Source: Actinocrinis sp.
GTDB lineage: Bacteria; Actinomycetota; Actinomycetes; Streptomycetales; Catenulisporaceae
Assembly (NCBI RefSeq): GCF_035650855.1
Contig: NZ_DASRGV010000061.1
Span: 299 to 64,298, forward strand
Direction of reading: 5' to 3'
DNA: 64,000 nt
Shown: positions 44,187-57,360 of the stretch, piece after piece
How the letters are laid out: the number at the start of each line of letters is the position of its first letter
Position numbering within the stretch: position 1 is the first letter of the stretch
Translations under genes and position numbers: made by a program
The notes under the pieces: model-generated
What the model saw: only the letters and a program-made list of their open reading frames with translations
Databases searched by the model: none
What the model was told of the DNA's origin: nothing

Positions 44187-45332
44187 GTGAGAATCGAAGA
44201 CGTCTACATCCGAGGCACGGGCGTGCGATTGCCCGCGCGGCTGATGGTGCAGGACGCCGTCGCTTCAGGCGAGTGCGATCCGCAGCTGGTCGCGCGTACG
44301 GGAGCCGTCTCGGTCTGCATCTCGGCCGACGAGTCGGCAGCTGAGATGGCGGTCTGCGCGGCCCGTGACGCGCTGCGCCGCGCCGGATCAGCCCCCGACG
44401 ACATCGAGCTCATCCTGCACGCCGACACCTACCACCAGGGCCAAGACCTGTGGCCGGTGGCCTCCTACATCCAGCGCGAGACCGTGCGCAATCAGTGCCT
44501 CGCGGTCGAGATCCGGCAGATGTCCAACGGCGGCCTGGCGGCGCTCGACCTGGCTTGCGCCTACCTTCGCCGGGCCGAACACCGGGCGGATGCGCTCTTG
44601 ACCGCCGCCGACAGGTTCTGCCCTCCGGGGATCGACCGCTGGCGCACCGATCCGGGCACGCCGTACGCGGACGGCGCCGCGGCCTTGGTCCTCTCCCGGC
44701 GCGGCGGCTTCGCCCGGCTGCTTTCGGTGGCGGTCACCGCGGACTCGGAACTCGAGGAGATGCACCGCGGCGAGGAGCCGTTCAGCCCGGCTCCGCTGAG
44801 CATCCGCACTCCCGTGGACTTCGCCGCCGCCAAGCGCTTCTTCACCAGCCGCTACGGCCTCTCCTTCGCGATCGGACGCACCACGGCCGGTCAGCGCGCC
44901 GTCGTCAAGGAGGCGCTGGCCGACGCGGAGCTCGAACTCGAGGAGGCGCAGTGGATCATCTTGCCGCACTTCGGCCGGCGCCGGATCGAATCCATCTACC
45001 TCCACCAGTACGGCATCCCCATCGAACGCACCACCTGGGAGTGGAGTCGCACCGTCGGCCATCTCGGCGCCGCCGACCAGTTCGCCGGCCTCGACCATCT
45101 GGTGTCCACCGGGGCGGCCCGGCCCGGCGATCACTGTGTCCTGATCTCGGTCGGCGCCGGATACAGCTGGGGCGCCGCCGTCGTGCAGATCACCGAGCAG
45201 CCCGCCTGGAGCGCGCAGCGCGCGGGCTTCGCCGCGGACGCCGCGGATGGAACGGCACCTCGAACAGAACCGGGCCGCGCTGAAGCAGCGTGCTTGGCCG
45301 ACGGCCCCACCCAGAGAAAGGACCAGCCTTGA
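44187..45332 (+). CDS. Ketoacyl-ACP synthase III-like enzyme with Ser at the nucleophile position
   Basis: VYIRGTGVRLP, ELILHADTYHQG..LWP.ASYI, EIRQMSNGG (Ser where FabH has Cys), DRWRTDPG..Y.DG.AALVLS, LPHFG and GHLGAADQ. Confidence 0.88.
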   Translation: MRIEDVYIRGTGVRLPARLMVQDAVASGECDPQLVARTGAVSVCISADESAAEMAVCAARDALRRAGSAPDDIELILHADTYHQGQDLWPVASYIQRETVRNQCLAVEIRQMSNGGLAALDLACAYLRRAEHRADALLTAADRFCPPGIDRWRTDPGTPYADGAAALVLSRRGGFARLLSVAVTADSELEEMHRGEEPFSPAPLSIRTPVDFAAAKRFFTSRYGLSFAIGRTTAGQRAVVKEALADAELELEEAQWIILPHFGRRRIESIYLHQYGIPIERTTWEWSRTVGHLGAADQFAGLDHLVSTGAARPGDHCVLISVGAGYSWGAAVVQITEQPAWSAQRAGFAADAADGTAPRTEPGRAEAACLADGPTQRKDQP

Positions 45333-46537
45333 CCGAGACGGCATCTGAGACCGCGCTGTTCCCCTGGTTCCGCGGCTGCCCGATGAAGGCGCCCGAGCAG
45401 TACGCCACGCTGCGCGAGAGCGAGCCGGTGGCCCGGGTGAAGCTGGCGACCGGGCGCGAGGCGTGGGTCGTCACCTCCTACGAGTACGTCAAGCAGGTAC
45501 TCACCGACCCGCGCTCCAGCTCGGACCGCGCCCACGAGGGCTTCCCGTACTACATTCCGATCCCCGAGCAGTTCAAGACCGACTGCTCCTTCATCGGCTG
45601 GGACCCGCCCAAGCACACCCTGCACCGGCGCATGGCCGCGCTGTCCGGCGAGTTCACCAAGAAGCGGGTGCTGGACATGCGCCCGCGGATGCAGGAGATC
45701 GTCGACGAGTGCATCGACACGATGATCGCCAAGGGCTCGCCCGCCGACCTGGTGCACGAGGTCGCGCTGAAGGTCCCGCTGACCATCGTCTGCGGCATCC
45801 TCGGGGTGCCGAACGAGGACCAGGCGACCCTGCACTCCTTCACCGAGGTGCTGTTCGGCGGCGGCAGTACCGCCGAGGACCGCGAGCGGGCGATCACCGG
45901 GTTCGGCCAGTACCTGCAGAAACTGGTAGAGCGCAAGGAGCAGGAGCCCGGCGACGACCTGATCAGCCGGATGATCGCCAAGTATCGCGCCGAGGGGATC
46001 TACGACCGCAGAGAGATGTGCAACGTCACGCGCCTGCTGCTCAACGGCGGCCACGAAACCAGTGCCGCGATGATCGCGCTCAGCACCATGACGCTGCTTG
46101 AACACCCCGACCAGCTGGAGCGGATCAAGGCGGACCCGTCGCTCGTCCCGGCCGCGGTCGAGGAGCTGTTGCGCTACCTCTCCCCGGGCGACCTGGCCAC
46201 GTCCCGGGTCGCACTGGAGGACATGCAGATCGGCGACGTCACCGTGCGCAAGGGCGAGGGCATCATCGTGCTCGGCATGGCCGCCAACCGGGACCCCGCC
46301 GTGTTCGACGAGCCCGACACCCTCGACATCGACCGGGAGTCGCGCAACCACGTCGCGTTCGGGCACGGCATTCACCACTGCATCGGCGCGGAGATCGCGC
46401 GGGTGGAGCTCGCCATCGTCATCAGCACCCTGTTCCGGCGGCTGCCGAACCTGCGGCTGGCCAAGCCGTGGAACGAGCTGCGCTACAAGGACGGCAACGT
46501 CATGTACGGCGTCTACGAGATGCCGGTCGCCTGGTAA
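45329..46537 (+). CDS. Cytochrome P450 (CYP105-like)
   Basis: TTG start overlaps the KSIII stop, GAAAGGA RBS; GGHETS (I helix), EELLR, ANRDP and AFGHGIHHCIG heme motif. Confidence 0.96.
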   Translation: MTETASETALFPWFRGCPMKAPEQYATLRESEPVARVKLATGREAWVVTSYEYVKQVLTDPRSSSDRAHEGFPYYIPIPEQFKTDCSFIGWDPPKHTLHRRMAALSGEFTKKRVLDMRPRMQEIVDECIDTMIAKGSPADLVHEVALKVPLTIVCGILGVPNEDQATLHSFTEVLFGGGSTAEDRERAITGFGQYLQKLVERKEQEPGDDLISRMIAKYRAEGIYDRREMCNVTRLLLNGGHETSAAMIALSTMTLLEHPDQLERIKADPSLVPAAVEELLRYLSPGDLATSRVALEDMQIGDVTVRKGEGIIVLGMAANRDPAVFDEPDTLDIDRESRNHVAFGHGIHHCIGAEIARVELAIVISTLFRRLPNLRLAKPWNELRYKDGNVMYGVYEMPVAW

Positions 46538-56515: not shown

Positions 56516-57360
56516 TGGCCGGTGTGGGCCCCGGGGGCGTTTCCGGAGGGCCGCTGGGCCGTCCGCTGCTGATTGAGGGGCCTGACGGGCCGTGGGAGGC
56601 GGTGCGCCGGCGGCTGGCCGAGGCCGGCGGGGTCATGGTGTACGGGCGGCTCGCCGACTGGCTGCCGGAGGATCCGGACGATCCCCGACTGCGGCTGCTG
56701 CTCGGCCGCGACTGGTCACGCGCGCAGCGTATGGCGCACCGGCACATCCGGTCGCGGTTCGTCGCGGCGCGGCTGCTGCTCAAGCATGCGGCGGCCGCCG
56801 TGATCGAGAGCCGGCCCGAGCTGCTTGAGCTTGCTTACAAGCCGGGTGGACGGCCTTACCTGCGCGGCTGCGACCAGATCGACATCAGCCTGAGCCACAC
56901 CGATGAGCTGCTCGTCGTCGGCATCACCCGGCGCGGCCGGATCGGCGTCGACGTCGAGTTGGCCGACCGCCCGATGTCGGGTACCGGTACCGAGAACCAG
57001 GCCTGCACGCCGTACGAGCTGGCGATGCTCAAGGCGATGGCGGAGGCCCGCAGGAACGGTGCGCTGGTGCGTCTCTGGACGCTGAAGGAGGCCTACAGCA
57101 AGGCCATCGGGCAGGGCCTGCGGTTCCAGTTCACCGAGTTCGGCTTCCGGCTCGGCGACCCGCGCGCCAGGGTCCTGCGGCCGGACGGCTCCCCGGGCAC
57201 CGGCGACGAGTGGACCTTCGGCACGTGCGCGGTGGACCGGCGCTACACCGTGAGCGTCGCGCTGTTCGACGCGGGCTTCGGCGACACGGTGGACACGGCG
57301 GCCGGAACCATGCTCGATCCCGGGCTGTTCGAGGCCCTGACCGGGGCCGGCCGCGGTTAG
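56512..57360 (+). CDS. Sfp-type 4'-phosphopantetheinyl transferase
   Basis: GGRPYL, ISLSHT, IGVDVE and WTLKEAYSKAIGQGL; ATG overlaps the upstream stop. Confidence 0.93.
   Translation: MMAGVGPGGVSGGPLGRPLLIEGPDGPWEAVRRRLAEAGGVMVYGRLADWLPEDPDDPRLRLLLGRDWSRAQRMAHRHIRSRFVAARLLLKHAAAAVIESRPELLELAYKPGGRPYLRGCDQIDISLSHTDELLVVGITRRGRIGVDVELADRPMSGTGTENQACTPYELAMLKAMAEARRNGALVRLWTLKEAYSKAIGQGLRFQFTEFGFRLGDPRARVLRPDGSPGTGDEWTFGTCAVDRRYTVSVALFDAGFGDTVDTAAGTMLDPGLFEALTGAGRG

What the first reader, a model, noticed from the sequence alone, without database searches (positions are those of the whole stretch)
44187..57360. Minimal dissociated acyl assembly line: FAAL, ACP, AT-ACP didomain and Ser-KSIII, with no elongating KS
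Seen: two carrier domains (one free, one fused to an AT with GHSIG/HGFH, malonyl-like), a dedicated PPTase, and one KSIII-like enzyme with QMSNGG (Ser nucleophile) and a His-His type pair (LPHFG, GHLG). No KS-I/KS-II, KR or TE is in the window. Known: DpsC-type KSIIIs use Ser, and CerJ/ChlB6-type KSIIIs act as acyltransferases. Inference: either a single condensation of fatty acyl-ACP with malonyl-ACP giving a beta-ketoacyl unit, or direct transfer of the acyl group onto the peptide.
Basis: partly seen in the sequence, partly recalled or inferred. Interest (0 to 1): 0.7.

Follow-up and report, generated by a model that had tools for sequence, protein, structure and literature searches.

The report
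Starter-loading genes of a type II polyketide cluster
The fatty-acid-activating enzyme, carrier proteins, acyltransferase and serine ketosynthase are real, but they are most likely the starter-unit loading set of a trioxacarcin-like aromatic polyketide synthase whose main enzymes begin 4.3 kb past the window's end.

Summary
They are a DpsC-type Ser-KSIII, a FAAL, a free ACP, an AT-ACP didomain and a PPTase.

The "no elongating KS" reading is a window-edge artefact. The same contig carries SARP, ACC beta/epsilon, KSalpha, CLF, ACP, cyclases, a second AT, a KR, an ARO/CYC and an AlkZ-like glycosylase, starting about 4.3 kb past base 64000.

The KSIII is the ortholog of TxnA5 and LldA6, the priming KS of trioxacarcin and LL-D49194 (69-70% identity). 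KSalpha is 78% identical to that of a txn-type Streptomyces cluster.

FAAL-ACP1-(AT)-PPTase plus a 586-aa ACAD-like gene is a conserved cassette. I found it in 36 of 401 sampled Streptomycetales genomes, and 30 or more of the 36 lie beside type II PKS genes.
- FAAL is fused to ACP1 in Catenulispora-type relatives.
- ACP1 is fused to a Ser-to-Gly (dead) AT in Streptomyces.
- This genome keeps an intact AT with its own ACP2.

Best reading: an initiation module that loads a short, probably 2-methyl-branched acid. Acylation of the neighbouring YcaO peptide is not supported but not excluded, because every cassette found co-occurs with that YcaO module.

This is a new variant of a known kind, of moderate interest. 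The scan had already noted this stretch on the same DNA.

The parts
44187..45332 (+). DpsC/TxnA5-type priming ketosynthase III (Ser113-His292-Asp297, plus His261). It carries a C-terminal tail of about 35 aa that orthologs lack.
   Evidence: PDB DpsC 4xs7, E 2.5e-103. 69% identical to TxnA5 and 70% to LldA6. Catalytic residues are invariant.
45290..48563 (+). P450, 2Fe-2S ferredoxin (46679-46999), ferredoxin reductase (47003-48199) and a second ferredoxin (48228-48563). These are oxidative tailoring genes, not part of the loading set.
   Evidence: Pfam. The FdR is 57% identical to the TxnO3 homolog and the P450 36% to the TxnO2 homolog.
48679..49863 (-). Acyl-CoA dehydrogenase of standard size (394 aa), last gene of the leftward operon. 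It is variable among relatives and absent from the Actinocrinis MAG locus L002.
   Evidence: Pfam; gene table of L002.
50042..51706 (-). IPMS/citramalate-synthase-like enzyme, homolog of TxnP2. Probably supplies the starter acid.
   Evidence: HMGL-like + HCS_D2 + LeuA_dimer. PDB IPMS, homocitrate synthase and citramalate synthase are about equally distant. 56% identical to the TxnP2 homolog.
51721..52773 (-). Alpha-methylacyl-CoA racemase ortholog, homolog of TxnP3. Points to a 2-methyl-branched acyl substrate.
   Evidence: PDB MCR 1x74, E 3.9e-107. 62-66% identical to the TxnP3 homolog.
53019..53034 (+). SARP-type box TCGAG-N6-TCGAG, 109 nt upstream of the FAAL start.
   Evidence: Two exact matches in the window (0.27 expected) and one in L001 (0.10 expected). 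All three are sense-oriented upstream of cluster operons: the C-domain gene, the FAAL operon and the KSalpha operon.
53143..54933 (+). Fatty acyl-AMP ligase (596 aa), first gene of the four-gene operon.
   Evidence: Best solved relatives are FAALs: 7r7f 2.8e-124, 3kxw, FadD23/32/28, 3pbk. Orthologs are named FAAL by NCBI, and FAAL-ACP fusions exist.
54930..55277 (+). ACP1, the free carrier protein that partners the FAAL (GIDS). Its GTG start overlaps the FAAL stop.
   Evidence: PF00550. Homologous to the C-terminal ACP of FAAL-ACP fusions and to the N-terminal ACP of the Streptomyces ACP-AT fusions.
55274..56515 (+). AT-ACP2 didomain. The type I PKS-like AT is intact (GHSIGE, Arg, HGFH) and carries its own C-terminal ACP (GFDS).
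   Evidence: Pfam. PDB CurL AT, E 6e-59. Motif table across 21 homologs.
56512..57360 (+). Dedicated 4'-phosphopantetheinyl transferase, last gene of the operon.
   Evidence: PF01648. Retained with the cassette, at 53-95% identity, in most loci examined.

Best explanation
The genes form the initiation (starter-unit) module of a trioxacarcin-related type II polyketide synthase. That synthase's KSalpha/CLF/ACP, KR, cyclases, second AT and AlkZ-like resistance gene lie on the same contig, just beyond the window.

Proposed steps:
1. The IPMS-like, racemase-like and ACAD enzymes supply a short acid, probably 2-methyl-branched and isoleucine-derived (inferred).
2. The FAAL adenylates the free acid and loads it on ACP1, which the operon's PPTase has converted to the holo form. 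The FAAL-ACP1 pairing is shown by gene fusions; the chemistry is inferred.
3. The 586-aa ACAD-like protein, encoded further along the contig, may modify acyl-ACP1 (inferred from co-occurrence).
4. The intact AT loads malonyl onto its fused ACP2 (inferred from motifs).
5. The Ser-His-Asp KSIII takes the starter and either condenses it once with malonyl-ACP or passes it to the PKS ACP (by homology to DpsC/TxnA5).
6. KSalpha/CLF elongate the primed chain into an aromatic, probably DNA-alkylating, polyketide (inferred from homology and the AlkZ-like gene).

The FAAL operon and the KSalpha operon carry the same SARP-type box.
For: Location of the PKS. The window is C61:299-64298 of an 82,224-bp contig. 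Downstream lie SARP, ACC beta/epsilon, an alpha/beta hydrolase, KSalpha, CLF, ACP, a SnoaL-like protein, a cyclase, a TxnA4-like AT, a KR, an ARO/CYC, the ACAD-like gene and an AlkZ-like gene.

Homology to txn-type clusters.
- The KSIII is 69-70% identical to TxnA5/LldA6, against DpsC at E 2.5e-103.
- Against a txn-type Streptomyces locus, KSalpha is 78% identical, CLF 68%, racemase-like 66%, IPMS-like 56%, ARO 53% and AlkZ-like 48%.

Interleaving. Orthologous clusters mix FAAL, ACAD-like, ACP1(-AT), PPTase and KSIII with ARO/CYC, KSalpha and CLF (L004; L086; G037).

Sample of 401 Streptomycetales genomes.
- 29 carry a TxnA5-like KSIII, and 25 of these also have the AT homolog. In 21 the two lie on the same contig, about 7 kb apart in most.
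- Six more genomes have the cassette beside KSalpha/CLF with no TxnA5-like KSIII, so the cassette tracks type II PKS genes.

Pairing and starter chemistry.
- FAAL-ACP1 fusions (41-44% identity to ACP1 in Catenulispora) and ACP1-AT fusions in Streptomyces show which proteins work together.
- The alpha-methylacyl-CoA racemase ortholog (E 3.9e-107) fits the 2-methylbutyryl starter shown for trioxacarcin (PMC5659172) and for the txn-like ver cluster (PMC13515585).

Co-regulation. TCGAG-N6-TCGAG boxes precede both the FAAL operon and the KSalpha operon.
Against: - The FAAL is dispensable in some txn-type clusters. TxnP1, the adenylating enzyme of the txn cluster, is reported missing from several trioxacarcin producers (PMC13511009). 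I did not test whether it is orthologous to the window FAAL. The txn-type locus I fetched has no FAAL, ACP1 or PPTase. A KSIII alone can therefore prime this family from acyl-CoA, and the cassette's exact contribution is open.
- The AT is not essential across the family. It is Ser-to-Gly in 16 Streptomyces homologs and absent in G037, so step 4 may be peculiar to this lineage.
- All 36 cassette-bearing genomes in the sample also have the YcaO module: 33 within about 10 kb, two at 27-29 kb, one on another contig. That includes cassettes with no type II PKS nearby (G042, G288). A link to the peptide is therefore not excluded.
- No substrate, chain length or acyl transfer was tested. TxnP1 did not appear among the best 120 FAAL homologs.
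Confidence: 0.7

Rival explanations
1. The FAAL cassette builds an acyl or beta-ketoacyl group that is attached to the YcaO/ThcOx-modified peptide. This would make a lipidated azole peptide, as a product or a signal, independent of polyketide priming.
For: All 36 genomes with the cassette in the 401-genome sample also carry the YcaO homolog, 33 of them within about 10 kb. The association holds across three cluster architectures, including two with no KSalpha/CLF nearby (G042, G288). A stand-alone C domain lies at 40826-42070 behind a SARP box.
Against: The YcaO-HK-RR module occurs without the cassette in about 68 of 106 genomes. In all 12 such loci inspected, no cassette lay in the stretch fetched (about 10-20 kb on each side). 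No GNAT or other conserved acyltransferase accompanies the cassette. The C-domain gene is full-length in one congener, reduced to fragments in three (G021, G051, G059) and not found in G047, a relative in another genus of the family. In G037 the FAAL-ACP gene is divergent from KSalpha, not next to the peptide.
Confidence: 0.08
2. The cassette makes a separate small acyl product or side chain. This could be an acyl group esterified onto the aromatic core or a sugar, or a beta-ketoacyl precursor of a diffusible signal. The KSIII would then prime the PKS directly from acyl-CoA, as in trioxacarcin.
For: Txn-type clusters prime without the cassette (PMC13511009). The cassette descends from, or is sister to, a self-contained set with its own KS, CHS-like KSIII, extra ACP and E2-like acyltransferase (L085, G042, G288, G047). 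In L085 that set sits next to an AfsA homolog. An alpha/beta hydrolase 64-67% identical travels with both forms.
Against: In six genomes the cassette sits beside KSalpha/CLF with no TxnA5-like KSIII. There it is the only visible initiation device. The FAAL-ACP gene is divergent from KSalpha in G037. The FAAL and KSalpha operons share a SARP box.
Confidence: 0.15
3. The set is a stand-alone minimal PKS that ends after one condensation, unrelated to neighbouring genes.
For: No elongating KS lies inside the 64-kb window.
Against: KSalpha/CLF/ACP start 4.3 kb beyond the window on the same contig. Synteny with type II PKS genes is conserved in four genera of the order.
Confidence: 0.03

Closest known systems
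Trioxacarcin / LL-D49194 clusters (txn, lld) and the txn-like ver cluster: TxnA5/LldA6 KSIII, TxnP1 adenylating enzyme, TxnP2 IPMS-like, TxnP3 CoA-transferase-like, TxnA4 AT, TxnU2/U4 AlkZ-like glycosylases
   Same: The KSIII is orthologous (69-70% identity). KSalpha, CLF, ARO, racemase-like, IPMS-like, FdR, SARP, HK, RR and AlkZ-like genes are homologous at 42-78% identity. A TxnA4-like AT is also present on the contig. The txn, lld and ver products use 2-methylbutyryl or isobutyryl starters (PMC5659172, PMC13515585).
   Different: This cluster adds ACP1, AT-ACP2, a PPTase, the 586-aa ACAD-like protein, ACC beta/epsilon and the YcaO/ThcOx/peptide module. No sugar genes are seen on this contig. 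The window AT is only 32% identical to the TxnA4 homolog. The function of TxnP1-P4 was left open in the txn paper, and TxnP1's substrate was still called unclear in 2026 (PMC13511009).
Daunorubicin initiation set DpsC (KSIII), DpsD (AT), DpsG (ACP)
   Same: Ser-His-Asp priming KSIII (E 2.5e-103 to the DpsC structures) accompanied by an AT, working with a type II minimal PKS (PMC12664062).
   Different: DpsC takes propionyl-CoA. There is no adenylating enzyme, no dedicated priming ACP and no PPTase. DpsD is a free AT of the editing type, not a type I-like AT fused to an ACP.
R1128 initiation module ZhuH/ZhuC/ZhuG, and the enterocin EncN acid:ACP ligase
   Same: R1128 has a dedicated priming ACP separate from the elongation ACP. 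Enterocin loads a free acid directly onto an ACP with no CoA intermediate. EncN is described in PMC12664062; ZhuG as the priming ACP is from my own knowledge.
   Different: ZhuH is a Cys-His-Asn KSIII and ZhuC an editing thioesterase. EncN is an aryl-acid ligase, not a FAAL. Neither system combines a FAAL, two extra ACPs and a PPTase.
FAAL-ACP loading with acyl-ACP dehydrogenase (mycobactin MbtM/MbtL/MbtN) and the AT-ACP didomain TcsA of FK506 allylmalonyl synthesis. Both are from my own knowledge and were not tested here.
   Same: The logic is the same: a FAAL loads an ACP, an ACAD-family enzyme acts on the tethered acyl group, and a free-standing AT-ACP protein carries malonyl for one discrete condensation.
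   Different: Those systems feed a siderophore acylation and a type I PKS extender unit, not a type II PKS. No sequence comparison was made.

Membership tests
DpsC-type (Ser-His-Asp) priming KSIII | KSIII/thiolase fold with Ser in place of the FabH Cys nucleophile | tested here: met
   PF08541/PF08545. Ser113 aligns with DpsC Ser118, the modified residue X in 5wgc.
DpsC-type (Ser-His-Asp) priming KSIII | His and Asp of the triad in the GHLGxxD motif | tested here: met
   GHLGAAD aligns with DpsC GHLGGGD (H297, D302). The residues are invariant in TxnA5, LldA6 and three more orthologs.
DpsC-type (Ser-His-Asp) priming KSIII | Encoded with a type II minimal PKS | tested here: met
   KSalpha/CLF/ACP lie on the same contig and in orthologous loci.
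DpsC-type (Ser-His-Asp) priming KSIII | Starter selection and condensation activity | not testable with these tools
   Needs enzyme assays.
Fatty acyl-AMP ligase (FAAL) | Adenylate-forming fold closest to proven FAALs, aligned without a break through the FAAL-specific insertion region | tested here: met
   The alignment to 7r7f runs over residues 40-578 with only single-residue gaps. FadD32, FadD28, FadD23, 3pbk and 3kxw follow.
Fatty acyl-AMP ligase (FAAL) | Cognate carrier protein adjacent or fused | tested here: met
   The ACP1 start overlaps the FAAL stop. FAAL-ACP1 fusions exist in relatives.
Fatty acyl-AMP ligase (FAAL) | Transfers to holo-ACP and not to CoA; chain-length preference | not testable with these tools
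   Needs an assay.
Malonyl-type acyltransferase domain | GHSxG serine, carboxylate-binding Arg, HAFH-type motif | tested here: met
   GHSIGE, VAVRGAYMQ and HGFH (a Gly variant of HAFH) are present. Substrate assignment from motifs is an inference.
Trioxacarcin-type biosynthetic cluster | TxnA5-type KSIII with IPMS-like and racemase-like genes, a txn-like KSalpha/CLF and an AlkZ-like glycosylase | tested here: met
   Identities of 48-78% to a txn-type locus.
Trioxacarcin-type biosynthetic cluster | Deoxysugar, glycosyltransferase and multiple methyltransferase genes, and TxnP4 | tested here: inconclusive
   None are seen on contig C61, but the contig ends right after the AlkZ-like gene and the assembly has 402 contigs.
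Lipidated ribosomal peptide systems (goadvionin, lipoavitide or selidamide type) | A conserved acyltransferase joining the acyl carrier product to the peptide, and obligatory co-occurrence of peptide and lipid genes | tested here: not met
   No GNAT is present. The C domain is fragmentary in relatives. The YcaO module is found without the cassette in about 68 of 106 genomes, and in 12 of 12 such loci inspected.

The most novel reading that the evidence does not exclude
The FAAL-ACP1-ACAD-like-PPTase cassette may not be a plain starter loader. It could be functionally coupled to the YcaO/peptide/kinase module it always accompanies. Examples are a lipidated azole peptide, or an acyl signal that gates the SARP-controlled polyketide pathway. 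That would be a new RiPP-lipid signalling system attached to aromatic polyketide clusters.
Probability: 0.1. Interest if true: 0.8.

Novelty: new variant of a known kind. Interest (0 to 1): 0.42.

Why it matters
Initiation modules are the main handle for changing the starter unit of aromatic polyketides. The forms reviewed so far use a priming KS, editing or loading ATs, or aryl-acid ligases (PMC12664062).

This locus represents a widespread and, in the literature I could search, undescribed form. It occurs in 36 of 401 sampled Streptomycetales species. A FAAL with its own ACP, an ACAD-like enzyme and a PPTase feed a type II PKS, with or without a Ser-KSIII.

It also gives a plausible job to TxnP1-type genes, whose function is left open in trioxacarcin work. 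The Actinocrinis version is the only one examined in which a type II cluster keeps an intact AT-ACP, so it is the best candidate for reconstitution. The AlkZ-like gene suggests a DNA-alkylating product.

Tried and rejected
- The related-loci scan with the AT-ACP was swamped by generic AT domains. Only about 10 of 79 loci were informative.
- The supplementary gene table of the ver cluster is not held, so I could not confirm that ver carries the cassette.
- TxnA5 itself has no contig on record. I used a txn-type locus from another Streptomyces instead.
- TxnP1 did not appear by name among the best 120 FAAL homologs. Orthology of the window FAAL to TxnP1 is therefore not shown.
- I first took TxnA4 to be the counterpart of the window AT-ACP and rejected that. 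It is only 32% identical, and a separate TxnA4-like AT lies further along the contig.
- My first ORF call at L001:9120-10844 (-) was an antisense artefact over that AT and the KR.
- Two earlier-findings look-ups, by sequence and by words, returned nothing useful.
- I did not run a complex prediction. Enzyme-carrier pairs are poor subjects for that test, and the fusions already show the pairings.
- No literature match was found for a FAAL-based type II PKS initiation module. Subscription journals are not covered.

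
Full report
**Gene content.** The DNA is 71% G+C. A third-position G+C plot and Pfam scans give the gene map below.

| Window coordinates | Strand | Gene |
|---|---|---|
| 44187-45332 | + | KSIII |
| 45290-46537 | + | P450 |
| 46679-46999 | + | ferredoxin |
| 47003-48199 | + | ferredoxin reductase |
| 48228-48563 | + | ferredoxin |
| 48679-49863 | - | ACAD |
| 50042-51706 | - | IPMS-like |
| 51721-52773 | - | family III CoA-transferase fold (racemase-like) |
| 53143-54933 | + | FAAL |
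| 54930-55277 | + | ACP1 |
| 55274-56515 | + | AT-ACP2 |
| 56512-57360 | + | PPTase |

The last four genes overlap start on stop and form one operon. It is divergent from the racemase-like/IPMS-like/ACAD operon. Upstream of about 39.9 kb the window holds glycoside hydrolases and transporters, so the cluster starts near 40 kb.

**What lies beyond the window.** The window is C61:299-64298 of an 82,224-bp contig. The remaining 18 kb (L001) encodes, in order:
- a SARP regulator, acyl-CoA carboxylase beta and epsilon subunits, and an alpha/beta hydrolase;
- KSalpha, CLF and an ACP;
- a SnoaL-like protein and a cyclase;
- a TxnA4-like AT, a KR and an ARO/CYC didomain;
- a 586-aa ACAD-like protein, a class V aminotransferase-fold protein and an AlkZ-like DNA glycosylase.

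KSalpha starts 4,338 bases after window base 64000. "No elongating KS" is therefore a window-edge effect.

**Identity of the KSIII and the cluster.**
- The KSIII matches the DpsC crystal structures at E 2.5e-103. Ser113 lies on DpsC Ser118, and His292/Asp297 lie on H297/D302.
- It is closer still to TxnA5 (69% identity) and LldA6 (70%), the priming KS of the trioxacarcin and LL-D49194 clusters.
- Against a txn-type Streptomyces locus (L087), identities are: KSalpha 78%, CLF 68%, racemase-like 66%, IPMS-like 56%, ARO/CYC 53%, AlkZ-like 48%, SARP 64%, RR 72%.
- The txn gene table lists these genes. It leaves TxnP1-P4 without assigned function (PMC5659172).
- The CoA-transferase-fold gene is an alpha-methylacyl-CoA racemase ortholog (E 3.9e-107 to M. 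tuberculosis MCR). That fits the 2-methylbutyryl starter shown by labelling for trioxacarcin (PMC5659172). The txn-like ver cluster likewise gave 2-methylbutyryl- and isobutyryl-primed products (PMC13515585).
- A review also ascribes a condensation with acetyl-CoA to starter formation (PMC9570651). That would be the IPMS-like step and would yield a free acid needing activation.

**The FAAL cassette is a separate, mobile unit.** FAAL, ACP1, AT, PPTase and the ACAD-like gene recur together, whereas the txn-type locus L087 lacks them.

I sampled 401 Streptomycetales genomes.
- A TxnA5-like KSIII (62% identity or more) occurs in 29.
- 25 of those also have the AT homolog. In 21 the two lie on the same contig, about 7 kb apart in most.
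- In all, 36 genomes carry the cassette.

Three main architectures appear (G180 shows a fourth, with a distant KS and a second AT).
1. Txn-like with KSIII: this genome, L004, L086 and G037.
2. KSalpha/CLF clusters with no TxnA5-like KSIII: G161, G334, G177, G216, G356 and G176.
3. A self-contained form with a second ACAD, its own KS and an AT-ACP. In L085, where gene calls with Pfam are on hand, it also has a CHS-like KSIII, an extra ACP and an E2-like acyltransferase. No KSalpha/CLF lies nearby. Examples are L085, G042 and G288.

G047 has forms 1 and 3 side by side, which suggests that form 1 arose from form 3.

**Which protein works with which.**
- The FAAL's best solved relatives are all FAALs.
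- In Catenulispora-type relatives the FAAL is fused to an ACP that is homologous to ACP1, and not to ACP2 or the PKS ACP. In G037 that fusion gene is divergent from KSalpha, and no AT is present.
- In Streptomyces, ACP1 is fused to the N-terminus of the AT. The C-terminal ACP2 is missing there, and the AT nucleophile is Gly (GHGxGE) in 16 of the 21 homologs aligned.
- Only the four Actinocrinis-type sequences, this one included, and two of the free-standing AT-ACP proteins of other clusters keep GHSxGE together with a C-terminal ACP.

So FAAL plus ACP1 is the constant core. AT-ACP2 is an inherited malonyl-loading carrier that is intact here, dead in Streptomyces and lost in G037.

**Regulation.** The motif TCGAG-N6-TCGAG occurs twice in the window and once in L001, against 0.27 and 0.10 expected. 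All three copies are sense-oriented in promoter regions: before the C-domain gene, before the FAAL operon (53019) and before the KSalpha operon. This fits control of loading and elongation genes by one SARP. The SARP gene lies at or just past the window's end.

**The peptide alternative.** The YcaO homolog is present in 106 of the 401 genomes. All 36 cassette genomes have it, 33 within about 10 kb of the AT homolog. That is a strong one-way association and keeps a functional link alive.

Against the link:
- About 68 genomes have the YcaO-kinase-regulator module without the cassette. In all 12 such loci inspected, no cassette lay in the stretch fetched, about 10-20 kb on each side.
- No conserved acyltransferase accompanies the cassette.
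- The stand-alone C-domain gene is full-length in only one of four congeners.

An earlier follow-up in this scan read the peptide module as a signal system tied to a kinase, its regulator and a SARP. My counts agree with a module that travels widely among polyketide and other loci.

**Verdict.**
The stand-alone and peptide-acylation readings do not.
- Shown here: gene identities, synteny, fusions, motif states and distribution.
- Inferred: the acid loaded, the role of the ACAD-like protein, which ACP gives malonyl to the KSIII, and the hand-over to KSalpha/CLF.
- I found no description of a FAAL-based type II PKS initiation module in the searchable literature. The substrate of TxnP1 was still called unclear in 2026 (PMC13511009).
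- I rate this a new variant of a known kind, of moderate interest.

Noticed in passing
window 55274-56515, compared with proteins P0020-P0096: In Streptomyces homologs the AT nucleophile Ser is Gly (GHGxGE), the C-terminal ACP is missing and ACP1 is fused to the N-terminus. The domain looks catalytically dead yet is conserved across many species.
   Followed up: partly
L128/L129 (G037:C60:45000-76104): A Catenulispora-type relative has the FAAL fused to ACP1, divergent from KSalpha, with PPTase, ACAD-like and KSIII genes in the same type II cluster and no AT homolog.
   Followed up: partly
L130/L131 (G047:C147:5000-44999): One genome carries two FAAL cassettes side by side. One is the self-contained form with its own KS and a second ACAD. 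The other is the shorter FAAL-ACP1-AT-ACP-PPTase form next to the YcaO module. This suggests an origin by duplication.
   Followed up: no
window 57371-63905 and 106 of 401 sampled genomes: The YcaO-kinase-regulator module is very common in Streptomycetales (26% of sampled species). It sits in varied surroundings, some with no PKS within 20 kb. In the loci scanned, a ThcOx-like oxidase homolog was detected only in G288, G037, G047, G031 and the Actinocrinis MAG.
   Followed up: partly
window 40788-40803 and 53019-53034; L001 4860-4875: TCGAG-N6-TCGAG direct repeats, of the SARP-box type, mark three promoters of the cluster. The SARP gene lies at or just past the window's end (L001 665-1657 as the longest frame).
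   Followed up: partly
window 40826-42070: The stand-alone condensation-domain gene has lower third-position G+C (0.80) than its neighbours. It is reduced to fragments in three of four congeners, so it is probably decaying.
   Followed up: partly
window 51721-52773: The gene that Pfam calls a family III CoA-transferase is a close ortholog of alpha-methylacyl-CoA racemase. It is conserved next to the KSIII in txn-type clusters, where TxnP3 is listed as a 'dehydratase or isomerase'.
   Followed up: partly
L001 17213-18463 (contig end): An AlkZ-like DNA glycosylase, 48% identical to the TxnU2 homolog, is the last gene before the contig ends. It predicts a DNA-alkylating product, and the cluster probably continues on another contig.
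   Followed up: no
L087 13816-14680: In the txn-type Streptomyces locus an unannotated gap of about 860 bp lies between the kinase and SARP genes, where other clusters carry the YcaO and peptide genes. It may be a deletion scar.
   Followed up: no
L085 (S. scabiei-group genome, 6321248-6342867): The self-contained FAAL cassette lies beside an AfsA homolog and a large SARP/NB-ARC regulator. A DUF6059 gene precedes the FAAL; the same small domain follows the TxnA4 homolog in L087.
   Followed up: no
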